From IMG/VR virus record IMGVR_UViG_3300008261_000093, positions 1 to 52,461 of that record: DNA of 52,461 nt. One strand, given 5' to 3'. Shown here one piece after another: positions 29,118 to 41,512 of the stretch (positions are counted from its first letter, which is position 1; every line of letters starts with the position of its first letter). The position numbers were made by a program, and so were the translations under genes. The notes under the pieces were generated by a model. The model searched no databases. It was not told the DNA's origin and saw only the letters and a list, made by a program, of their open reading frames with translations. The DNA comes from a virus. Its lineage: Duplodnaviria; Caudoviricetes.

Positions 29118-32100
29118 TTATAGCTCCGATGTTTGGCGAACAAAGCCACGATTAGCCTTGTTAGTTTGTACCCCGCCAACTACACTTCTTTCACGTTTAG
29201 CTTGTTCTTGTGGAGCTTTCAGTAGTATTGACAACGATTGTCTTTTAAATCCATTACGAACTCTTGACTGTTGTAGTTCTTCCCAATCATTTCGTGCATC
29301 TGATAGACCCACTCCACTTCTATACGCACGTGCATACGCACGTTTGATTTCGCTGGCCTTATCATTATAAAACTTCTCGTACTCAAACTTGGCATTTTGT
29401 AAAAATTGTTTATCGGTCAACTGCTTAGTAGGTAGCCCAATTCCGGCCATAAATGCTTCGGCAAAGCTAATATCCTCTGCTGGGATAAGTACATCGTCTC
29501 TACGTGATGTAACCCCTTCAGTGGCAAATCTATAGCCCTTCATGGCATTGGCTACACCGGTAGGCATAAGCTGCTCTAAGCCCTTGTAGTAGTCCCCCTG
29601 ACCCATTAATGATATGCCGTCAGCGGCTTTAAGGGTTAAACCACCGAATGGGCCGGTCATTAGGGCAAAGCCTGCTTCGGCAACACCCCTACGGCTAAAG
29701 TCTATATCTGTATATGGCAGGATTGAGAGCATCTGACCCATACCGAGCTTGCCCGAAAGGTCTACACCCAAAGCTGCAGGCACACCCTTAACTATTAAGT
29801 CTGCAAGGGTATCATCGCCAATAGCCCGACGCATAGCCAACTCTGGGTTATCAGGCTCATCCTCATCTCCAAAGACCAGACCATACAGGAATGATAGAGC
29901 CGCAAACCCTGGTAATCCCATTACCCCGCCCATAGCTGCGGTATGTCCAATTGTAAACATCAGGGCGCGGCGACCAATTCTGCGGGTATCTGCATCTTGA
30001 CCTGCAAATGCGTCGTTAAATAAGCGAGCCATCAGGCTTAGCTGGATAAGCTGGAACTTACGGAACTGGGTAGCTAAACGACCTAAACCTTTACGACTAA
30101 TACGTGGAGCATTAAATCCACTGTAGTCACCATGGGTTCTGTAGATTATGCTGTCAGCGTAGTTAATAGCATTGGCTTTATTGTTAGTTCTAGCCTCAAG
30201 ACGGTACGCAGCCACTGCAGTTGCTACACGGTTAATGGATTCAATGTCTTGGGCAATCCCACGGAGATATTCAGTAGCACGACCAAACTTATCTAACTTA
30301 GAGTCTTCAGTAGATCTCCAGCGTCCTAAGTCCTGCTCCAGGCTAATGTCAATTCTTCCCCGGTTAACCAGTTCTTCGACAACATCCTTAACATCCTGTG
30401 GCAGCTTGTTATAACTGTCTTCGCCAAGACCATGCCTACGAATAACGCTGGCAATATCAGTATACGCACGAGTAAACTCTTTCCATGACTTATCGTAGCC
30501 ATGCTTAGCACCGACTACTGGCAAGGACATCATGAATGGCTGAGTCATGTTCTGTAAATAGTAGGATGGGTTAGTTAGTAACATCCATACAGAAGTCGTA
30601 TTTAAAGCCTTATCAATAAATGGCGATGGCTCGTAGTCTAGCCCCATTACATGACGCTTCATAAACTCGTTGTAGTACCGGCTACGTTCTGCTCGAGTAC
30701 CTTCTGTGCCTTTTCTGGCTTCCTCTTTCATATCCCGTAAAGAGTCATAGATCTCTTCAGAATTCTCTAAAGACGAGATAAAGTGGGCTGTAGCACGGCC
30801 TTGCGTAGCAAATGCACGCATCATATCTTTTTCAGCACCGGCAATCTTACGGCGACGCTTCTCAGACTGGCGAGCAGACTGCTCAGACAACAGGCTTAAA
30901 TGAAGATCGGATAGTAAGCGATTAATCGTTCGTTCAGACTTGTCAGTAGTGTTGCTGTCTTGGGTGTCGGCTATTTGGTCAGGGGCAGACTTGGGGTTAT
31001 CCCTAATGCTTTCCTGATCTAGGTATGCCTGTGAACGACCAACAACTACATAATTACCAAAACGCTTAAGTGGAGCGTAAGGACCTTTATTTCCCATACG
31101 CATCAAAGTTCTGTATTCAGCTAACGAATTGGCTTTTTTCTTAGTAAGTTCGGCTACTTCAGTAACATCACCGGCTTTTTGCGCTGCAGCAATTAATGCA
31201 TCGTATTCGGTATTGATGTTGTTAATAACCGCATCTTGCATTGCCTTTAGCGTCTGGCGCCCATGATCAAAGACTTCTTTAATAAGGTTTTGGGCTACTA
31301 CAGGGAATGCTTCAAAACGAGTTTTTAACTCTGGGTCAATCTTCGAACCCTTAATGTTAGCGTCATAACCCCACTCACCTTTCATGGTTGAGTCTTTAAT
31401 AAATGCGTTTACGCTATTCTCGCCAACACCCCTTACCTCATTTGGTAAGGCATCATACTGTTGCAAAATCTTATCGATACGACGCTCAAGAGAAGTCCTA
31501 ATTGCTTGCTGGGCTTTTACCAACTGAACATAGCGTTTTGCCGATGGCAGATATTTAGATGCTAAGTCAGCCAAATCTTCGGTAAATGCAGCAAATGGTA
31601 AGCCCTTCTTAGCAAAGTCAATGATGTTATCGGTAATTGCTTGTAATGGACCACGGATTGGCTTGGGTAGTTTTGCTACCTGCTGGGCTGCTGTTTGACG
31701 TGCGGCATTTAAACCTGCTTTGGAGAACTGTACTTTTTCTGTGTCAGCACCAACTAAAGACAAAGCACGGAAGATGTCTTCGTCGCTAAACATGACGATG
31801 TTTTTGGTAATTCTTTCTTCCGATGTATTTTTACGAGATGTGGCATCTTTAAATTGATTACCTTTAATACCTTGTTCATACAAAAACTGAGACACTACCC
31901 GTTGAGCTTGTTGTCCAGAAGCTAATACTTCTTTGTCTTTTACAGCTTTAACTAACCATCGTGGATCACCTAAAGCAAGAGCTTTTATACCAAAATAAAG
32001 GTCATGTCCTGTGGCTTCTTCTAAAAGTACTCCAGCATTACCTAAAGCTGCCTCAATAACCATAGCTTGGTCGTCAGGAAGATTTTTTAAAATGTTGTAG

Positions 32101-35100
32101 ATATATGGCTGATCTTTAACCTTCTTATCAAGATCAAGAAGCTCTTCTGGACGAGCATTAATATCCACCCGCATTAAATTACCAGGTACGCCTTCAGTAG
32201 CTGTAGAAAAATCAATTGGATTTAGCTTGTTTAGCGCATCAATAAAGCGCTGATTTGTACCACTTCTGGTACCAATATCATTATTGTCGATACGTTTTTG
32301 CCAGCTTTCAATTTCAGCTTTAATAGCTTGCAAAACAGTTGGATTTTTTACAGATAATCCCATCATGGCAGATACAGGACTTTTCATGCGTCGTATAACA
32401 TCAAGAGCTACGTTTGTCTCAATATCATCACCAGTTTTACTAAAAGTAGCCATAACTGATCTACGCAGGTCTCTAACAGACCGGCCTTTGTAGCGATAGC
32501 CTACATCTTTAGTTTTGTTTTTAACATCAGTTTTCCAGTACTGATATGCAATTCCTGCTTTTTGAGCAAGATATGTACCCCAACCAAAAGCTTGAGCACC
32601 TTCTCCAGTACCCATAAATCTTTGGTCAAATCTACGGAATGAGGCTGCAGTACCATGCCATGTGCCACCTATTTCTAGTCGTGCGGCACCATAAGCAATA
32701 TTAATAATGTCCTGAGCGTCAATTTTGTCAGGATCAAACGTATTCAAACGACGAATTGCAGTTTTAAATGCAGCCCACAAAGTACGGAACCAACGGCCTA
32801 ATTGGGTATCAGGTTTAGTAGCGGTTGGGTCTATGTCGTGTAATACAGCTTCTTCTATAAAGTAAGCAATTAATTCTGTATTAGCTTGTTCATTTTCAAC
32901 ACCTGTAGAACGCTCTAACGCTTTTTTAGCAATTACTGACTCAATAGAACCGTCATCTTTTTTAGCCCACTCAAGAACAGTATCTACTAAGTAGTCAAAC
33001 TGCTTCTCTGTAAGCATCTTTTGGATGCCTAAATGTGAGCCTACTTCGTGCATAAACACAGCACGTGCTGTGCCTGGCTTAATATTATCTGCAATCAAAT
33101 ATGCTTTATTTTTCCAAACAAACGCTTGGTCACCGGCTTTAGGATTGGCTGCAATTTTAGCGTCAAGAGGCAAGTCTTTTACCGACTGGAAGACTTCTAC
33201 ACGACGAAGATTTTCACCACCAATAAAGTCTTTTAACTCTTGGCGTATTTCTTCAGCGTTGGAACTTTCGCCACGTTCAACAGCTTTAGAAAACTCTGGT
33301 TTATTGCGCTCAAAGACAATATTCATGTCGGCAAGTTTTGTATTACCAGTTTCTACTGAGGCTTGCCAATCATCTTGTACTTCTGGAGATAGCTCGTCGT
33401 AAGTAGGTAGCCCATACTGCTCAGCTTTAGTGTCCCACTCTTCTCGTGCTGTTTCTTCTAGCGTCCTCGCGCTGACTTCTTCATCGGCTTGTTCATCTTC
33501 TGTGGCAGCTTCGACCCTTTCGGTGTCTTTGCTTGGAACTCTCTTGCCAGTTTCGGCTTGTTTGCGTACAGGAACCCCTTTTGTGCTTCGCTTTTGAACG
33601 GCATTTTTCTCTTCTCCTTTACCAATACGAATCTCTTCGCGGCGGTTAATTTCTTTAACAATGGCTTGAATTTCTGCGTCTGTAATACGCTCATCAATAG
33701 CTAAGTTGTTGAGTTCAAAGTCTTTTAAAGCCTGTAAACCCTGCTTCTTAAACTTCTGATAAGTTCTGTTTGCAGCCGATGCATCCTCAAGTTCAGTAGC
33801 TCCGCTTTCTTGTGGGTTAAATACTCTAAATCCAGAAGCACCACCACCTTCTTTTTCGGTAGTTTCTTCACGACCTAAAGTCTGCTCACCCTCAGCTTCC
33901 ATAGCAGCATCTTCAGCCATGGATGGACCAGCCTCATCTGATACAGCAGCCTCACGAGCAGCCGCAGCTTCAAAGTCTAAGTCTTGCTCAGTAAGTGTTT
34001 CGGCTTCAGTAGCAGCTTCAGTTTCAGCCGTAGCTACAACCATTAGGTTATAAATTTGATCTTTTGTATAACCTAGGCGTTTAGCCGCTTCAAAAATACG
34101 AGCACCCCAAGTCTCTTGAGCTTTTGGCCCAGCAATTTGAGCAATACGAGCATCAGATACACCATACTCATCCGCAATCTGTACAGAGGTCTTTTCCCCT
34201 GTAAGGTATTCCATAACAATACCGCCATCACGAGTACCGAACGCTGAATTAACAATCGTTCTAATTCTCTCAATTGCCTCTAGGCGGTCGTCAGGAATTA
34301 CTTGCGTTTCTTGCTCTTGCCCAACACTGGGAATGGCATTATCGCCCCCACTGGTACTGGGCTCAACCCGTGGTCGTACACTTCCTGGTCCGACATCTTG
34401 GACTGTACTCGGGAGTATAAGGTTGCTTCCTGTCCCGACGGGTCGAATTTGGTCGGGTCGTACAGGCCCAACGAGTCCACCGCTTGTTTCTGCTGCTCTT
34501 CCTTGCTCTGGTACTGCTCCCACCCCGGTAGGCACTCGCAATTGCTGCTTTTCATTTTTTGCTCCTTTAGTTGTGTTTGTTTCGGATGCTAATTGCTGAA
34601 GGGCTACAAAAGCTGGTGCATCCTTACCAGTTAAAGCCTTATAAAAATTGTTGAGCTCATCGGCTTCTTTCAAAGCTTTTGGGCCTTCCAAAGTACTAAT
34701 TAAAACCTCTGCACGCTCGGCAGCTTCTGCTTTATCTGCCGAAGTATCGATACCCCACTCAGATAAGAATTTAACTGCAGCAGCATTAACAGCCTTGGCA
34801 GTAGACTTAAGAGGTACTTTTACAGCACCAGAAGATAGAGTTGCGCCAATAAGCGACTTTTGCTCTGGGGTCTTATCTTTATTAAGTGCGTCGAGCTCTG
34901 CCAAAAACTTAGTTGCATCAGCCTGACTAAATAGTGTTTTCCCTGCAATGTTATAACGACCAGCTACTTGAGTTGGCTGTACACCATAGGTAGAGGAAAT
35001 CTCGTCAAATGCAGCTTGAGTTTCTTGTTGTTTTTGAGCAGCTTGTTGTTGTGCTACTTGGGCTGCTTGCGCTTGCTGCGCTGCAGCAACTTGTGCTGAA

Positions 35101-36212
35101 GATGGTACGGGTGGGCCGGCTTGCTCAGGTGGTTGTGGGCCAACTAATGCTTCTCTTGGGGGTGGGCCGACCAGAATTTCTGAGCTATTAGCGTCAATAG
35201 CTTTATTAATAGCATTTTCGTCAGGGGTTTTACCCTCACCAGTACTGATGTTAGTAGAGCCAGGCAATAGACTATTAGGTGCAGTAACTCTATTTAAAGT
35301 ACCGACAACGGCGCCAGTACCACCGCCCAATAAACCACCTAAAGTAGCTGAGCCAATAACACCACTTAAAGGCTGAATAGTAGGAGCAAACTCACCTGCG
35401 GCAAGGTTAGCAGATAACTTAGTAACACCTTCTTCAACAAATTCTGAGCCTGCTTCAGCTGCAGTTGTTTTTAATATGCTTTTTGTACCAGCGGCAAATG
35501 CTTTATCAGCACCAACTAAACCTGACGCTGCACCAATAATAAATGGTAGTGGGGCTGCACCTCTAGCTGCACGGGTGGCAATCTGCTCACGCTCTTCAAT
35601 CGGTAAGTCTTGTAGTTCAGGAGCATTCATTACCATTTGGTAAGCATCGCCAGACGCATCACCACCTGCAAGAACACCACCGGCAGTACTACCGCCAGCT
35701 AAACCAGCTCGGGCAACACCTCTCTCGGTTAGACCAAGGGCGCCACCTATCATTCTTCCACCTTTAATTGCGGCACCTGGGCCAACAAAACTACCAATTG
35801 CTTGGGATGCGGCTAATAAAGGATTTTCTTTTACATATTTAAATGCACCTGCGGCTTGTTCACCTAAGTCTTCGGACTGCATTGAACGACCAAGTTGATA
35901 CTTAGCTTCGGCTGCAGTAAGTGATTGTTTCTTTTCACCTTCTTCAATAAAGCGACCGATAGCAGCAGAAGTTTCTGTGCCTGGTTTTACTAGATCAATA
36001 GCTGCTTTGGGTAAAGATGCTACAGCATTTCCAAACTCAATAACATAATCGTTAGCTGCGCCTAATACACCTCGTTTTTCGGATATACCTAAATAGCCTG
36101 CTACTTCCATGGGGGAAAGACCAGTTAGCTCGACCCCTTTATCTAAGATCTGTCGATCAGTTAGGTCTTTAGCCCATGGTGCTGCTTGGCGAATATCGTC
36201 AAACAAAGACAT
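29118..36212 (-). CDS. Large polyvalent internal virion / ejection protein (HTH, HEVGSH metallopeptidase-like, ADP-ribosyltransferase-like, PLxRFG domains)
   Basis: 2364 aa, last of the ejection cluster; TSVQIADEYGVSDARIAQI, FMHEVGSHLG, WHGT..FD..GEGAQAFGWGTYL, YAPLKRFG. Confidence 0.85.
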   Translation of the reverse strand: MSLFDDIRQAAPWAKDLTDRQILDKGVELTGLSPMEVAGYLGISEKRGVLGAANDYVIEFGNAVASLPKAAIDLVKPGTETSAAIGRFIEEGEKKQSLTAAEAKYQLGRSMQSEDLGEQAAGAFKYVKENPLLAASQAIGSFVGPGAAIKGGRMIGGALGLTERGVARAGLAGGSTAGGVLAGGDASGDAYQMVMNAPELQDLPIEEREQIATRAARGAAPLPFIIGAASGLVGADKAFAAGTKSILKTTAAEAGSEFVEEGVTKLSANLAAGEFAPTIQPLSGVIGSATLGGLLGGGTGAVVGTLNRVTAPNSLLPGSTNISTGEGKTPDENAINKAIDANSSEILVGPPPREALVGPQPPEQAGPPVPSSAQVAAAQQAQAAQVAQQQAAQKQQETQAAFDEISSTYGVQPTQVAGRYNIAGKTLFSQADATKFLAELDALNKDKTPEQKSLIGATLSSGAVKVPLKSTAKAVNAAAVKFLSEWGIDTSADKAEAAERAEVLISTLEGPKALKEADELNNFYKALTGKDAPAFVALQQLASETNTTKGAKNEKQQLRVPTGVGAVPEQGRAAETSGGLVGPVRPDQIRPVGTGSNLILPSTVQDVGPGSVRPRVEPSTSGGDNAIPSVGQEQETQVIPDDRLEAIERIRTIVNSAFGTRDGGIVMEYLTGEKTSVQIADEYGVSDARIAQIAGPKAQETWGARIFEAAKRLGYTKDQIYNLMVVATAETEAATEAETLTEQDLDFEAAAAREAAVSDEAGPSMAEDAAMEAEGEQTLGREETTEKEGGGASGFRVFNPQESGATELEDASAANRTYQKFKKQGLQALKDFELNNLAIDERITDAEIQAIVKEINRREEIRIGKGEEKNAVQKRSTKGVPVRKQAETGKRVPSKDTERVEAATEDEQADEEVSARTLEETAREEWDTKAEQYGLPTYDELSPEVQDDWQASVETGNTKLADMNIVFERNKPEFSKAVERGESSNAEEIRQELKDFIGGENLRRVEVFQSVKDLPLDAKIAANPKAGDQAFVWKNKAYLIADNIKPGTARAVFMHEVGSHLGIQKMLTEKQFDYLVDTVLEWAKKDDGSIESVIAKKALERSTGVENEQANTELIAYFIEEAVLHDIDPTATKPDTQLGRWFRTLWAAFKTAIRRLNTFDPDKIDAQDIINIAYGAARLEIGGTWHGTAASFRRFDQRFMGTGEGAQAFGWGTYLAQKAGIAYQYWKTDVKNKTKDVGYRYKGRSVRDLRRSVMATFSKTGDDIETNVALDVIRRMKSPVSAMMGLSVKNPTVLQAIKAEIESWQKRIDNNDIGTRSGTNQRFIDALNKLNPIDFSTATEGVPGNLMRVDINARPEELLDLDKKVKDQPYIYNILKNLPDDQAMVIEAALGNAGVLLEEATGHDLYFGIKALALGDPRWLVKAVKDKEVLASGQQAQRVVSQFLYEQGIKGNQFKDATSRKNTSEERITKNIVMFSDEDIFRALSLVGADTEKVQFSKAGLNAARQTAAQQVAKLPKPIRGPLQAITDNIIDFAKKGLPFAAFTEDLADLASKYLPSAKRYVQLVKAQQAIRTSLERRIDKILQQYDALPNEVRGVGENSVNAFIKDSTMKGEWGYDANIKGSKIDPELKTRFEAFPVVAQNLIKEVFDHGRQTLKAMQDAVINNINTEYDALIAAAQKAGDVTEVAELTKKKANSLAEYRTLMRMGNKGPYAPLKRFGNYVVVGRSQAYLDQESIRDNPKSAPDQIADTQDSNTTDKSERTINRLLSDLHLSLLSEQSARQSEKRRRKIAGAEKDMMRAFATQGRATAHFISSLENSEEIYDSLRDMKEEARKGTEGTRAERSRYYNEFMKRHVMGLDYEPSPFIDKALNTTSVWMLLTNPSYYLQNMTQPFMMSLPVVGAKHGYDKSWKEFTRAYTDIASVIRRHGLGEDSYNKLPQDVKDVVEELVNRGRIDISLEQDLGRWRSTEDSKLDKFGRATEYLRGIAQDIESINRVATAVAAYRLEARTNNKANAINYADSIIYRTHGDYSGFNAPRISRKGLGRLATQFRKFQLIQLSLMARLFNDAFAGQDADTRRIGRRALMFTIGHTAAMGGVMGLPGFAALSFLYGLVFGDEDEPDNPELAMRRAIGDDTLADLIVKGVPAALGVDLSGKLGMGQMLSILPYTDIDFSRRGVAEAGFALMTGPFGGLTLKAADGISLMGQGDYYKGLEQLMPTGVANAMKGYRFATEGVTSRRDDVLIPAEDISFAEAFMAGIGLPTKQLTDKQFLQNAKFEYEKFYNDKASEIKRAYARAYRSGVGLSDARNDWEELQQSRVRNGFKRQSLSILLKAPQEQAKRERSVVGGVQTNKANRGFVRQTSEL
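33458..33604 (-). CDS. Nested 48-aa basic protein (MPFKSEAQ... type) in the +1 frame of the large gene
   Basis: AAGGAG at 33619-33614, 9 nt before ATG; MPFKSEAQKGFLYANKPKLAREFQAKTPKGSKLP... Confidence 0.7.
   Translation of the reverse strand: MPFKSEAQKGFLYANKPKLAREFQAKTPKGSKLPQKMNKPMKKSARGR
34298..34555 (-). CDS. Nested 85-aa protein in the +1 frame of the large gene
   Basis: AAGGAG at 34567-34562, 6 nt before ATG; composition unlike a shadow ORF. Confidence 0.55.
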   Translation of the reverse strand: MKSSNCECLPGWEQYQSKEEQQKQAVDSLGLYDPTKFDPSGQEATLYSRVQSKMSDQEVYDHGLSPVPVGAIMPFPVLGKSKKRK

Positions 36213-39494: not shown

Positions 39495-39707
39495 TCACTG
39501 TCCGGATGCATTCAATCTAATAATTATCTCATTTACCTTACTAATTACATCACTCAAAGACGCTGTGCTGTTCAAAGTTGTAATTTCTCCGATACCAAGC
39601 CGAGCGCCGTTGATTGTTTCTATGTTTTCCTTAATGGCTGCAATTGCCTGATTTAAAGTTCTATCAGTAGTATTAACCGCAGGAATACCTGGTTTTCTAA
39701 AAGCCAT
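39495..39707 (-). CDS. Small tail-associated protein
   Basis: KPGIP..AIKENIE..TG/NGAR pattern; coupled to upstream stop. Confidence 0.7.
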   Translation of the reverse strand: MAFRKPGIPAVNTTDRTLNQAIAAIKENIETINGARLGIGEITTLNSTASLSDVISKVNEIIIRLNASGQ

Positions 39708-41512
39708 TACGGAGCAATCTCTCTAAGTTCGCCAATTGAGCTAGCTAATGCAACCATCCTAGTGGGGGTATTTCCCGAAATTCGGATTTCATATACATAC
39801 CCTTTTTGAAGAGCAGGAAGCCTAAAAGGTTCTTGATTTAAAATATCTTTTTGAAAAATTTGAACTCCATCTGCGTACAAAATTACAGTAATAAAGCGAG
39901 TTGCCCCTAGTGGGGGAATATTAACAAGTAAGCTACCGTTAAACTCATACTGATTAATATACCCACTATTAAACTGCCCTTGCACGTTACCAGCAAATAA
40001 TGCAGCGTTTGCGGCCTTTAAAGCATTTACGTACGCATTATAAGCAGCTAAATCGTCCATAAAAGTAAAATTTGCTTGAACTTTCATAGCCCCAAAGTTT
40101 AAAGGGTTAGGCATAACAAATTTCTTAGACAACCACTCAAAAGTCGTAAAGTTAAGAGTAGAAGCATCTAACTTATAAACTTTGTTATCTGTATTACTAA
40201 CAGCAAAAACATCAGAAATACTTCTATCTACAAATACAGAACGAGCTGGAAAATCTAAATTTACTAATGGAGGTATATCACCCCTAGATAGAACAAAACC
40301 GGTACGAGTACCCCCGTCAGGTAAATAAAAACCCATGTACATATTGTTATAAATCGTACCAACAATTGTTTCTGGATTTAGTAGTTGCCACTCGTCTCGG
40401 GTATAAAGAGGTACAGTTACAACGTCTTGACTACCAGATCCTAAGGAAACTAATCCGTTAGGAGAAGCATAAAGCACACCATATTGATCTGAAGCAATAG
40501 ACTTTTTAGATACACATGGTTGGGGGATTGGCAGCTTTTGCTGCGTCATAGATGCTGGGGATACACCTGAAATAAGGTATGGGAATCTTGTAGTTAGAAC
40601 AACTAATGTGGTTTCATAAACCCCAAGCCCAACAATCTGATAATCCACTGTAAGAGAGTAAATATCAGGCCATGCGTGTGGATAATAAGGCTCTGAAAAG
40701 TAAATCTGATTTCCAATAAATCCTGCCAAAATTCCGTTTGGCATGGCTACAAGCCCTTGTAGATTCGCAGGTGGAGGCGTCCAGTATAAAGATGGAAGCT
40801 CAGATCCTAACTGATCAACAGTTAAACTATCTACATAACTTGTTGTTGCAAGTGGGATTTCTGCTACAAAACTATAGATAACATTAGTAGCACCAGTAAT
40901 AGTCCTATAAATACGGCGGTGTGTAATGTTGTAGCCCGTTGTCGGAGCAGCTGAAAATCCAGAAACTGTAACTGTCGTACCAGCTACCGTGCTTACTGAA
41001 ACTGTTTGTGCTGGGCTTGGAGCAGATTCTTCTTTAACCGTGCCAAATGTGCTGACGTACGTATAAACGTACGCTCTTGTTTCTGTGGGTGCAGTACTAC
41101 TAGAAGCAGATAGGGTAGGGGCAGCAACTGGTGCTGGAACACCCATATATAACCATGCGTCGGGGTAGGGTTGAGTACCTGCTCCGCTTGTTGTAGCTAA
41201 TGCATAGTTTGTCTTTTTTGGAGCTCCGTCGCCTGTATAGTAATAGCGAAACTCATTAACGTCAGCAACTGGACCGGGAACCATATCCACATCAGCCGCC
41301 CACTCTAGCCAATATTTTAATCCGCTAGGGCTATCAATACGATAAATTGTTTGTACGTTTGGGGTTGTCGGAGTAAATTCTAAAACAGGTTCTGCCCACG
41401 AGCGAAGCTCACGGGATTGAAGTTTTACATTAAGCGCCTTTTGCGCTTGATTAGCCTCAATTTGGGTAGGGCCTGTCCTAGGAACAATTCCTGAGAAATC
41501 TTCGACCTTAAT
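39707..41512 (-). CDS. Tail nozzle / stabilization protein; reading frame extends 74 codons upstream of the first canonical start
   Basis: FSEPYYPHAWP, PCVSKKS, YASPNGLV; frame open to 41521 (IKVEDFSGIVPR...), AAGGAG 5 nt before ATT at 41512. Confidence 0.75.
   Translation of the reverse strand: MKVEDFSGIVPRTGPTQIEANQAQKALNVKLQSRELRSWAEPVLEFTPTTPNVQTIYRIDSPSGLKYWLEWAADVDMVPGPVADVNEFRYYYTGDGAPKKTNYALATTSGAGTQPYPDAWLYMGVPAPVAAPTLSASSSTAPTETRAYVYTYVSTFGTVKEESAPSPAQTVSVSTVAGTTVTVSGFSAAPTTGYNITHRRIYRTITGATNVIYSFVAEIPLATTSYVDSLTVDQLGSELPSLYWTPPPANLQGLVAMPNGILAGFIGNQIYFSEPYYPHAWPDIYSLTVDYQIVGLGVYETTLVVLTTRFPYLISGVSPASMTQQKLPIPQPCVSKKSIASDQYGVLYASPNGLVSLGSGSQDVVTVPLYTRDEWQLLNPETIVGTIYNNMYMGFYLPDGGTRTGFVLSRGDIPPLVNLDFPARSVFVDRSISDVFAVSNTDNKVYKLDASTLNFTTFEWLSKKFVMPNPLNFGAMKVQANFTFMDDLAAYNAYVNALKAANAALFAGNVQGQFNSGYINQYEFNGSLLVNIPPLGATRFITVILYADGVQIFQKDILNQEPFRLPALQKGYVYEIRISGNTPTRMVALASSIGELREIAP

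What the first reader, a model, noticed from the sequence alone, without database searches (positions are those of the whole stretch)
33458..33619. A small basic gene nested inside the giant ejection-protein gene
Seen: inside the 2364-aa ORF, in the +1 frame on the same strand, AAGGAG (33619-33614) lies 9 nt before an ATG that opens a 48-aa Lys-rich protein, MPFKSEAQKGFLYANKPKLAREFQAKTPKGSKLPQKMNKPMKKSARGR. The host frame here is a low-complexity linker (GKGEEKNAVQKRSTKGVPVRKQAETG). Recalled, not searched: 'MPFKSxAQ..(F/M)YA..P..A..(W/F)...TP' proteins occur as free-standing small genes in other phages. Inference: a real gene has been absorbed into the ejection-protein linker, giving a dual-coding segment that gene callers miss. 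It may encode a DNA-binding core protein or a partner made in a fixed ratio to the giant protein.
Basis: partly seen in the sequence, partly recalled or inferred. Interest (0 to 1): 0.8.

Follow-up and report, generated by a model that had tools for sequence, protein, structure and literature searches.

The report
Real small gene inside giant gene
A 48-codon gene with its own ribosome-binding site really is written in a second reading frame inside a giant phage virion-protein gene. It is kept by selection in many related uncultured phages, so gene finders are missing a conserved small protein there.

Summary
The ORF at 33458-33604 (-) is a real, conserved, out-of-frame gene. It belongs to a very large family of small phage proteins that has no Pfam model (phrog_1375; 3,995 cluster representatives at E<=1e-3).

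Members of this family stand alone in many phages. They lie nested, always in the +1 frame, in giant genes that have diverged to about 25% identity.

In 80 relatives found by the giant gene's HExxGH domain alone:
- 30 carry this nested gene;
- 15 carry an unrelated small basic gene (DUF6496-like) at the same place and in the same frame;
- 25 carry neither;
- 10 are cut too short to tell.

Selection switches frame over exactly this segment. Pooled pN/pS is 0.24 for the peptide frame and 1.87 for the host frame in the core, against 0.41-0.49 for the host frame in the flanks.

A Shine-Dalgarno match sits before 39 of 41 nested starts, against 2% of background starts. Eight copies start with GTG instead of ATG. 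The host frame is stop-free across every nested copy, but across none of 43 free-standing copies.

Function is unknown. The AlphaFold2 model shows a helical hairpin with a disordered basic tail. The "fixed-ratio partner of the giant protein" idea is weakened.

The same giant gene holds a second nested gene of 85 aa at 34298-34555.

The parts
33458..33604 (-). Nested gene, 48 aa plus TAG, in the +1 frame of the giant gene. It is a member of the MPFKSEAQ small-protein family (phrog_1375).
   Evidence: Conserved in L003, L004 and L007 at 92-98% aa identity. Peptide-frame pN/pS is 0.24 in the core. AF2 model: helices at residues 6-15 and 17-26, tail disordered.
33614..33619 (-). Shine-Dalgarno AAGGAG, 9 nt upstream of the nested ATG.
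   Evidence: The purine-rich SD is kept in all relatives, although the host frame reads it as different residues. Enrichment over background.
33458..33621 (-). Dual-coding stretch of the giant gene. The host frame here is a low-complexity linker whose sequence is not conserved but which is kept free of stops.
   Evidence: Host-frame pN/pS is 1.87 in the core and 1.12 in the tail, against 0.41 and 0.49 in the flanks. The corresponding frame is stop-free in 0 of 43 free-standing copies.
29118..36212 (-). Host gene: 2364-aa giant virion or polyvalent-type protein.
   Evidence: Residues 1776-2300 match phrog_10089 'DarB-like antirestriction' at E 3e-54, and residues 47-307 match phrog_18222. tblastn matches PLxRFG/DarB-like genes of about 60-kb isolate phages over the C-terminal part only. 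Pfam gives only a weak ART-PolyVal match below its cut-off.
33366..33437 (-). Conserved host-frame motif W-D...LP..YDELS...DDW just after the slot. It marks the slot as positionally homologous among giant-gene groups.
   Evidence: translation. (alignment with groups A and B and with the fam2 carriers L100 and L109).
33033..33050 (-). HEVGSH, a zincin-like HExxGH motif of the giant protein. It starts 185 aa after the nested start.
   Evidence: This domain was used as the unbiased probe (A3).
34298..34555 (-). Second nested gene, 85 aa, also in the +1 frame. AAGGAG lies at 34567-34562 with a 6-nt spacer.
   Evidence: 86-98% aa identity in L003, L004 and L007. Pooled pN/pS is 0.14 in its own frame against 3.16 in the host frame.

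Best explanation
The ORF at 33458-33604 (-) is a real protein-coding gene embedded out of frame (+1) in the linker of a giant virion or polyvalent-type protein gene.

How it is made. It is most likely translated on its own from the late mRNA of the giant gene. Ribosomes would start at its own Shine-Dalgarno site and ATG, giving a protein of about 5.5 kDa. The AlphaFold2 model (mean pLDDT 79.6) shows a short N-terminal helical hairpin, and the Lys/Arg-rich tail is modelled with low confidence, without secondary structure.

What the segment encodes. Selection preserves the small protein's sequence. The giant protein's frame is only kept open, and it reads a tolerant low-complexity linker there.

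Shown by sequence comparison: family membership, nesting, conservation of frame, start and SD, and the frame switch of selection.

Inferred: independent translation, and late co-expression with the giant gene.

My best guess at function, at about 30% odds, is a small late protein. The conserved hairpin would dock onto a virion or packaging component, and the basic tail would bind DNA. The same N-terminal module heads very diverse longer proteins, which fits a docking role.

The confidence given here (0.88) is for 'a real, selected, separately initiated gene', not for the functional guess.
For: 1. Homology.
- phrog_1375 at E 6.4e-5.
- A profile of 33 members finds 3,995 cluster representatives at E<=1e-3 and 728 at E<=1e-10. 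The match nearly always starts at residue 1.
- Free-standing copies lie in P-RSP2 and C75C1 and in 55 of the 80 IMG/VR loci kept.

2. Nesting is conserved.
- 25 of those 80 loci hold the gene inside a stop-free frame of more than 400 aa. It is always +1 relative to that frame.
- The giant proteins are collinear down to about 25-30% identity.

3. Sample chosen without reference to the peptide. 80 loci were found through the HExxGH domain.
- 30 have the nested gene, all in the +1 frame, 468-639 aa upstream of HExxGH.
- 15 have a different nested family, 25 have neither, and 10 are too short.

4. Selection (9 independent pairs, pooled Nei-Gojobori pN/pS).
- Upstream flank: host frame 0.41, +1 frame 1.21.
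- Nested core: host frame 1.87, peptide frame 0.24.
- Nested tail: host frame 1.12, peptide frame 0.56.
- Downstream flank: host frame 0.49, +1 frame 1.06.
- The direction holds in 9 of 9 pairs in the core and is reversed in 9 of 9 pairs upstream.
- In a sliding-window scan the nested segment holds the top windows for W-L004, L013-L021 and L017-L042.

5. Start signals.
- 39 of 41 nested starts have a match of at least 5 nt to AAGGAGGT at -17 to -4. The 41 starts are 38 different sequences. The background is 2.0% of 4,918 +1-frame ATG/GTG codons.
- 33 starts are ATG and 8 are GTG.

6. The host frame is actively kept open. It is stop-free across all nested copies. In 43 distinct free-standing copies the same frame holds 1-8 stops, and 0 of 43 are open.

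7. Natural variants in lake metagenome contigs.
- Of 4 listed differences inside the ORF, 3 are at the peptide's third codon positions. The fourth, together with one of those three, gives R21K.
- A 3-nt deletion lies in the SD-ATG spacer.

8. Function hints.
- The AF2 hairpin has pLDDT 87-94 over the first 20 residues.
- Free-standing copies abut the large terminase (L016, L051, L078) or tail-fibre-like genes (L040, L041, L052, L067).
- 54 long family members carry 44 unrelated C-terminal extensions. One extension is an S-AdoMet lyase/DUF3293 region.
Against: - There is no direct evidence of expression. RNA-library contigs cover 33664-33903 and 34269-34700 but not the 48-aa ORF, and DNA can be present in such libraries. 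No proteomic or ribosome-profiling data were available.
- Starting translation inside a heavily translated ORF may be inefficient.
- The gene is dispensable for this phage type. 25 of 70 informative relatives lack any nested gene. 7 near-complete relatives have neither family at the slot, and the family profile finds no copy of this family anywhere in their records.
- pN/pS in overlapping frames is biased, because a silent site in one frame is a replacement site in the other. No formal likelihood test was run. The contrast with the flanks serves as the control.
- The invariant MPFKSEAQ in alignment A2 is partly an artefact of the search pattern. Copies found through HExxGH show MPFRSKAQ, VPFKSQAQ and VQVKSQSQ.
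- The functional guess has little support. There is no Pfam family and no PDB match by sequence or fold. The context is not uniform: the P-RSP2 copy lies among small genes near the left end of that genome.
Confidence: 0.88

Rival explanations
1. Hybrid product by programmed frameshifting. Either ribosomes reading the giant gene shift into the +1 frame and stop at 33458, or ribosomes starting at 33604 slip -1 into the giant frame and make a tagged C-terminal fragment.
For: In other phages the family's module sits at the N-terminus of many longer proteins. A fusion to the downstream part of the giant protein would mimic that architecture.
Against: - Only 3 of 38 nested ORFs hold an X_XXY_YYZ heptamer in the register needed.
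- The tail is still under peptide-frame constraint up to the stop (pN/pS 0.56 against 1.12 in the host frame).
- Conservation begins exactly at the start codon. The in-frame stretch upstream of it varies in length and sequence.
- ATG/GTG exchange with a retained SD fits initiation.
- C-terminal extensions of long family members show no similarity to the giant proteins.
Confidence: 0.04
2. Chance ORF, or conservation of a nucleic-acid element (RNA structure or DNA site) rather than of a protein.
For: Alternative-frame ORFs of about 48 codons occur by chance in this gene. The nested stretch is unusually conserved at the DNA level.
Against: - Substitutions concentrate at the peptide's third codon positions, and pN/pS switches frame.
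- The peptide is homologous to thousands of free-standing ORFs.
- SD enrichment.
- An unrelated protein family with the same frame signature occupies the slot in other relatives.
Confidence: 0.02
3. Functional rival A. The small protein is a dedicated partner, chaperone or stoichiometric cofactor of the giant protein that encodes it.
For: The nested position guarantees co-transcription. The slot is positionally conserved just upstream of a conserved host motif.
Against: - Records with free-standing copies lack the giant gene's HExxGH domain in 15 of 15 cases. 7 of these records are at least 90% complete, and the two nested-gene controls scored 1e-84.
- 25 of 70 informative relatives have no nested gene.
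- Two unrelated families share the slot.
Confidence: 0.12
4. Functional rival B. It is an accessory host-takeover or counter-defence factor, a moron-like cargo housed in a permissive linker, with no structural role.
For: - Patchy presence and replacement by another family.
- The host gene is of the DarB-like polyvalent type.
- One long family member carries an S-AdoMet lyase/DUF3293 region.
- The P-RSP2 copy lies among small genes near the left end of that genome.
Against: Several free-standing copies sit next to terminase or tail-fibre genes. There is no similarity to any described defence or counter-defence protein, although PADLOC was not searched.
Confidence: 0.25

Closest known systems
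Lambda Rz1 inside Rz (embedded spanin gene); recalled from textbook knowledge, not searched here
   Same: A small gene with its own start lies wholly inside a larger phage gene on the same strand, in the +1 frame. Both products are made.
   Different: - Rz1 and Rz are partners in one function. Here partnership is not supported.
- The embedded gene is not a lipoprotein.
- The host gene is a giant virion-type protein, and the overlap lies in a linker whose host-frame sequence is unconstrained.
Overprinted genes of small viruses, such as phiX174 B in A, K in A/C and E in D. Recalled; only the abstract of review PMC8227390 was seen, in the listing.
   Same: Dual coding of one DNA stretch. The two frames show asymmetric constraint.
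   Different: Overprinting creates a new protein de novo inside an older gene. Here the embedded protein belongs to an old, widespread family that exists free-standing, so the host frame is the younger reading of this stretch. The 85-aa second nested ORF may be closer to classical overprinting, since only 4 close relatives were found.
PHROG family phrog_1375 (unknown function)
   Same: The 48-aa product matches it at E 6.4e-5 over residues 3-45.
   Different: The PHROG library gives no function for this family. I did not examine in what genomic context its members lie.
Pfam DUF3008 (PF11450) and DUF6496 (PF20106), small basic proteins of unknown function
   Same: - The N-terminal MPxKS.AQ resembles DUF3008, from my recall. 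The ESM Atlas gives a DUF3008-containing cluster at 0.85, which is a lead only.
- The second slot family matches DUF6496 weakly, in 1 of 3 members scanned (E 0.0016, 19.2 bits, cut-off 24).
   Different: - Pfam shows no match for the 48-aa product, nor a DUF3008 match for any of the 33 family members.
- The two slot families are not detectably related (hhalign probability 12%).
Polyvalent proteins and DarB-like or PLxRFG giant virion proteins (Iyer et al. 2017, PMC5512222; abstract and 12 passages seen)
   Same: The host gene has a zincin-like HExxGH motif and a DarB-like C-terminal domain, and it sits in a late structural block.
   Different: The words 'overlapping', 'frameshift' and 'small protein' occur 0 times in that paper's main text. 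Its supplements could not be opened.
Small basic DNA-associated virion proteins (Microviridae J) and helical-hairpin capsid-docking modules (P22 scaffolding C-terminus); recalled, analogy only
   Same: A tiny protein that combines a short structured anchor with a strongly basic part. Some copies lie in late-gene contexts.
   Different: There is no sequence or fold match. Virion presence and DNA binding are untested.

Membership tests
MPFKSEAQ small-protein family (phrog_1375 and the profile built here from A2) | Significant profile match over the conserved N-terminal core of about 40 residues | tested here: met
   phrog_1375 at E 6.4e-5. The A2 profile matches the window's copy at E 2e-24. Identity to family members is 42-92%.
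MPFKSEAQ small-protein family (phrog_1375 and the profile built here from A2) | The module sits at the very N-terminus, starting at the initiator codon | tested here: met
   In most of the 150 best representatives the match begins at residue 1. In the window it begins at the ATG.
Embedded out-of-frame phage gene (Rz1-type arrangement) | The whole ORF lies inside a longer ORF on the same strand, in another frame | tested here: met
   +1 frame.
Embedded out-of-frame phage gene (Rz1-type arrangement) | Own ribosome-binding site and start codon, conserved in relatives | tested here: met
   39 of 41 starts against 2% background; ATG/GTG exchange.
Embedded out-of-frame phage gene (Rz1-type arrangement) | Purifying selection on the embedded frame | tested here: met
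Embedded out-of-frame phage gene (Rz1-type arrangement) | Both products shown to be made | not testable with these tools
   RNA contigs do not cover the ORF. No proteomics were available.
Pfam DUF3008 | Match to PF11450 at or above its gathering score | tested here: not met
   The 48-aa product has 0 families at E<=10. DUF3008 is not among the families hit by any of the 33 members. The only link is an ESM Atlas lead at 0.85.
Polyvalent or DarB-like giant virion protein (host gene) | DarB-like/PLxRFG C-terminal domain | tested here: met
   phrog_10089 at E 3.3e-54 over residues 1776-2300. tblastn to genes annotated DarB-like or PLxRFG.
Polyvalent or DarB-like giant virion protein (host gene) | Zincin-like metallopeptidase domain recognised by a curated model | tested here: inconclusive
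   The HEVGSH motif and conserved surroundings are present. No Pfam metallopeptidase model matched at E<=0.01.
Polyvalent or DarB-like giant virion protein (host gene) | Packaged in the virion and injected | not testable with these tools
   Inferred only from family names and from the neighbouring internal-virion-protein gene 39707-41290 (phrog_511).

The most novel reading that the evidence does not exclude
The linker of the giant DarB-like gene in a widespread clade of uncultured 52-60-kb phages is a conserved 'slot'. It houses out-of-frame small-protein genes, with at least two unrelated families at the same place and a third nested gene elsewhere in the same gene. The MPFKSEAQ hairpin would be a general docking or packaging tag. 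Thousands of phage proteins would use it, either alone with a basic tail or at the head of very diverse cargo domains, to enter the capsid or packaging machine.
Probability: 0.2. Interest if true: 0.85.

Novelty: new variant of a known kind. Interest (0 to 1): 0.74.

Why it matters
- Gene finders discard ORFs embedded in longer ORFs. A conserved protein is therefore missing from the annotation of a whole group of abundant freshwater and other uncultured phages. Even the free-standing copies in two GenBank isolate phages are unannotated.
- The case is unusually clean. It has free-standing homologues, an unbiased sample of relatives, a frame switch of selection with flanking controls, and a second unrelated family in the same slot.
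- It suggests that overlapping genes can arise when a long gene comes to read through an older small gene, and not only by de novo overprinting. It also shows that disordered linkers of giant phage proteins tolerate this.
- It brings forward a very large small-protein family (3,995 cluster representatives) that has no Pfam model and no known function, and it gives a concrete handle for testing that function.

Tried and rejected
- Pfam on the 48-aa product and on all 33 family members: no meaningful family.
- Pfam on six longer in-frame versions from loci: only DNA_binding_2 at E 0.01, below its cut-off.
- PDB by sequence profile: 0 hits.
- Foldseek against PDB: 0 hits.
- Foldseek against BFVD: only uncharacterised small phage proteins, all with E above 0.001.
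- blastn of 2.1 kb around the site against isolate phages: no match.
- tblastn of the window's peptide and of a group-B peptide against isolate phages: 5 and 4 records, with no nested copy seen.
- Neighbours of free-standing copies against the giant proteins: no hits. So I found no 'gene A, small gene, gene B' ancestor.
- L010 was counted as nested by the 400-aa rule. It is a high-GC contig where a 335-aa ORF ends just before the peptide, so it is ambiguous. I left it out of the tree.
- Search for further SD-led alternative-frame ORFs in the loci that lack both families: nothing convincing.
- Consensus promoter and terminator scan of 33300-34900: no more sites than in shuffles.
- Peptide tree: 42 columns and many unresolved forks. 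The nested label needs 4 changes (3-5 in bootstraps) against 26.5 when shuffled. One origin is neither shown nor excluded.
- Complex prediction with two copies of the peptide: the tool returned no answer, so this counts neither for nor against self-association.
- RNA runs: two RNA-library contigs touch the giant gene but not the 48-aa ORF, so transcription of the ORF is not shown.
- A contig of run X4 skips 33387-33453. I did not interpret this.
- Literature searches:
  - 'MPFKSEAQ': 0 papers.
  - 'DUF6496': 0 papers.
  - 'PLxRFG': 5 papers, none on overlaps.
  - Overlap and overprinting searches found no paper on this case.
  - Only listings and abstracts were seen, except PMC5512222, where I saw passages.
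  - Supplements are closed, so domain tables there could not be checked.
  - Published catalogues of small phage genes that I recall were neither searched nor read. They may already list this family.
- The pair W-L008 was dropped because it is not independent of W-L004.
- One search was an empty script.
Full report
THE OBSERVATION

On the minus strand, AAGGAG lies at 33619-33614. Nine bases follow it, then ATG at 33604, 48 codons and TAG ending at 33458. The ORF lies inside the 2364-aa ORF 29118-36212 (-), one base out of register (+1).

The window is an IMG/VR virus record of 52,461 bases, estimated 91% complete. PHROG matches include:
- a head-tail adaptor or portal gene at 696-2813;
- a DNA polymerase, a helicase and a primase;
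- a tail-fibre gene;
- an internal virion protein at 39707-41290.

The giant gene's C-terminal 525 residues match 'DarB-like antirestriction' (phrog_10089, E 3e-54). They also match the PLxRFG/DarB-like genes of about 60-kb isolate phages at 22-28% identity. Pfam gives only a sub-threshold ART-PolyVal match.

IS THE PEPTIDE PART OF A FAMILY?

Pfam says nothing, but phrog_1375 matches at E 6.4e-5.

tblastn against isolate phages finds short matches in Prochlorococcus phage P-RSP2 and Phage C75C1, and weak ones in Synechococcus phage S-CBS2 and phage 023Pt_psg01. In P-RSP2 and C75C1 the match is a small, unannotated, free-standing ORF that begins MPFVSEKQKKYLYANKP... and MPFKSEKQRKFLYANKPKLAKQW....

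A scan of IMG/VR with the peptide matched 372 stretches. Of these, 251 were confirmed by tblastn and the best 80 were kept.

A profile of 33 members (A2) was searched against 1.84 billion cluster representatives. It finds 3,995 proteins at E<=1e-3 and 728 at E<=1e-10. The match begins at residue 1 in most of the 150 listed. Their median length is 86 aa; 68 are at least 100 aa and 29 are at least 200 aa.

The family has no Pfam model, no solved structure and no name in any source.

NESTED AND FREE COPIES

Of the 80 loci, 55 hold the gene free-standing or as the head of a longer in-frame ORF. The other 25 hold it inside a stop-free frame of more than 400 aa on the same strand.

In every nested case the peptide is +1 relative to the long frame, and a purine-rich SD lies a few bases upstream. 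One of the 25, L010, is ambiguous.

The giant proteins fall into three groups:
- the window's own group (L003, L004 and L007 at 77-87% identity, L008 at 37%);
- a larger group that is collinear along its length at 25-50% identity;
- two outliers.

Outside the nested stretch the window's group and the larger group show almost no BLASTP similarity. They do share two features:
- an HExxGH domain downstream;
- a W...P...(Y/F)xxL(S/P)...W motif right after the slot.

So the slot is positionally homologous.

AN UNBIASED SAMPLE

Those loci were found through the peptide itself. I therefore probed IMG/VR again with the HExxGH domain alone (A3). This matched 297 stretches, of which 161 were confirmed and 80 were kept. 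The result:
- 30 carry the family, all in the +1 frame inside the giant frame, 468-639 aa upstream of HExxGH;
- 15 carry a different nested ORF (described below);
- 25 have enough upstream sequence and carry neither;
- 10 are cut too short to tell.

Eight of the 30 start with GTG instead of ATG and keep their SD. Exchange between canonical start codons is what a real initiation site is expected to show.

SELECTION

I used nine phylogenetically independent pairs of nested loci and pooled Nei-Gojobori estimates. The pooled pN/pS values are:
- Upstream 300 codons: host frame 0.41, +1 (peptide) frame 1.21.
- Nested core, 37 codons: host frame 1.87, +1 (peptide) frame 0.24.
- Nested tail: host frame 1.12, +1 (peptide) frame 0.56.
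- Downstream 300 codons: host frame 0.49, +1 (peptide) frame 1.06.

The peptide frame beats the host frame in the core in 9 of 9 pairs. The reverse holds upstream in 9 of 9 pairs.

A sliding-window scan places the nested segment at the top for W-L004, L013-L021 and L017-L042. For L055-L063 other windows score higher, and that pair also gives the weakest contrast.

These estimates are biased in overlaps, and I ran no likelihood model. The flanks are the control.

In lake-metagenome contigs, 3 of the 4 listed differences inside the ORF fall on the peptide's third codon positions. The fourth, together with one of those three, gives R21K. A 3-nt deletion sits in the SD-ATG spacer.

START SIGNALS AND THE OPEN HOST FRAME

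39 of 41 nested starts have a match of at least 5 nt to AAGGAGGT at -17 to -4. These 41 starts are 38 different sequences. The background is 2.0% of 4,918 other +1-frame ATG/GTG codons in the same genes.

The host frame reads the SD as different residues in different lineages, among them GE, RR, EE and GG. What is conserved there is therefore the nucleotide signal.

In 43 distinct free-standing copies the frame that corresponds to the host frame holds 1-8 stops and is never open. In nested copies it is always open. Both frames are thus under selection: the peptide frame for its sequence, and the host frame for staying open.

RIVALS

- A frameshift hybrid is unlikely. Only 3 of 38 copies hold a slippery heptamer in the needed register. 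The tail is still constrained in the peptide frame. Conservation starts at the initiator codon.
- A chance ORF or a nucleic-acid element is excluded by the frame-specific pattern and by the homology.

A SECOND FAMILY IN THE SAME SLOT

Loci that lack the family often hold another +1-frame ORF at the same place. It reads (M/V)PLK(K/S)G(S/K)S.KVVS.NV.KIM.EY..GGKLGTS.RPKSK...QAVA..LS.AGR, has an SD and starts with ATG or GTG.
- One of three members scanned matches Pfam DUF6496 weakly (E 0.0016, below the cut-off).
- One member matches phrog_2423 (E 2e-8).
- It is not detectably related to the first family (hhalign probability 12%).
- It shows the same frame switch of selection: pooled pN/pS is 0.45 in its own frame against 1.57 in the host frame over six pairs.
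- AF2 models it as two helices with a basic end (pLDDT 70.7).

WHAT DOES THE 48-aa PROTEIN DO?

AF2 with the family alignment gives a helical hairpin (residues 6-15 and 17-26, pLDDT 87-94 over the first 20 residues) and a disordered Lys/Arg-rich tail. No fold match is significant.

Free-standing copies lie directly beside the large terminase (L016, L051, L078) or after tail-fibre-like genes (L040, L041, L052, L067). For three other neighbours PHROGs gave nothing. The P-RSP2 copy lies among small genes near the left end of that genome.

54 long family members carry 44 unrelated C-terminal extensions. Of the ten longest, one has an S-AdoMet-lyase/DUF3293 region and two have DUF5661. A conserved N-terminal module on varied cargo suggests a docking or targeting role, and the short forms add only a basic tail. 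I rate 'late small protein, hairpin docks, tail binds DNA' at about 30%.

The 'dedicated partner of the giant protein' idea is weakened:
- None of 15 records with free-standing copies has the HExxGH domain. 7 of these records are at least 90% complete, and two nested-gene controls scored 1e-84.
- 13 near-complete relatives without the nested family have no copy of it anywhere.
- Six of those 13 carry the second family and seven carry neither.

ORIGIN

The peptide tree is poorly resolved. The nested state is clustered (4 changes against 26.5 when shuffled), and a single origin is neither shown nor excluded.

The family is far wider than the giant genes, and free copies always have stops in the host-like frame. 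So the host frame is the younger reading of this stretch. Whether it arose by fusion of two genes across a small gene, or by insertion into a linker, is open. I found no split ancestor.

A SECOND NESTED GENE IN THE WINDOW

The scan also flagged host residues of about 560-630. There an 85-aa ORF lies at 34298-34555 (-), again in the +1 frame, with AAGGAG 6 nt upstream.
- It is 86-98% identical in L003, L004 and L007.
- Pooled pN/pS is 0.14 in its own frame against 3.16 in the host frame.
- It has no PHROG match.
- It has only four close relatives in the 5.8-billion-protein collection and three loci in IMG/VR.

COMPARISON WITH THE KNOWN

Embedded out-of-frame genes are known in phages; Rz1 in Rz and the phiX174 overlaps are examples that I recall. 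The defining sequence features of such an arrangement are met here, but translation is not shown.

What differs:
- the embedded gene is an old, widespread family rather than a de novo product;
- the host is a giant DarB-like or polyvalent-type gene;
- an unrelated family occupies the same slot in relatives.

My searches found no paper on this. The polyvalent-protein paper does not use the words 'overlapping', 'frameshift' or 'small protein' in its main text.

VERDICT

It is a real embedded gene (confidence 0.88) whose function is unknown. I rate it a new variant of a known kind, with interest 0.74.

Noticed in passing
window 34298-34555 (-): A second nested gene lies in the same giant gene. 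It is 85 aa, in the +1 frame, with AAGGAG 6 nt upstream. It is 86-98% conserved in three relatives. Pooled pN/pS is 0.14 in its own frame against 3.16 in the host frame. It has no family match and only a handful of close relatives, so it may be a young overprinted gene.
   Followed up: partly
L100:2137-2316, L158:2638-2817, L152:2452-2628 and 12 further loci of L086-L165: An unrelated small basic gene occupies the same +1-frame slot of the giant gene in 15 of 80 relatives. It starts (M/V)PLKKGSS and shows weak DUF6496 and phrog_2423 matches. It has an SD, starts with ATG or GTG, and shows its own frame-specific selection.
   Followed up: partly
L001:3001-3123 (HQ332139, P-RSP2) and L002:3001-3105 (OQ984151, Phage C75C1): Free-standing members of the family lie in gaps between annotated genes of two GenBank phage records. 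They are not annotated there.
   Followed up: yes
L004 and L007, downstream of the nested gene (host residues of about 980-1300): Close relatives of the window carry different inserted blocks of several hundred residues between the slot and the HExxGH domain. The distance from nested start to HExxGH is 503 aa in L004 against 185 aa in the window, so the giant gene is mosaic.
   Followed up: no
window 33387-33453: One lake-metagenome contig (run X4) joins 33387 to 33453, skipping 65 bases just after the nested stop. What lies between is not known. It could be a variant linker or another organism's sequence.
   Followed up: no
L123 (IMGVR contig of 57,173 bases): Here the open frame that holds HExxGH begins only 569 aa upstream of the motif, near where the slot lies in other relatives, and a different 542-aa ORF precedes it. 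This is a possible hint that the slot was once a gene boundary, from a single case.
   Followed up: no
L010:1551-1697: This is a high-GC contig in which the family member both follows a 335-aa ORF and overlaps a 431-aa ORF in another frame. Whether it is nested or free cannot be told.
   Followed up: partly
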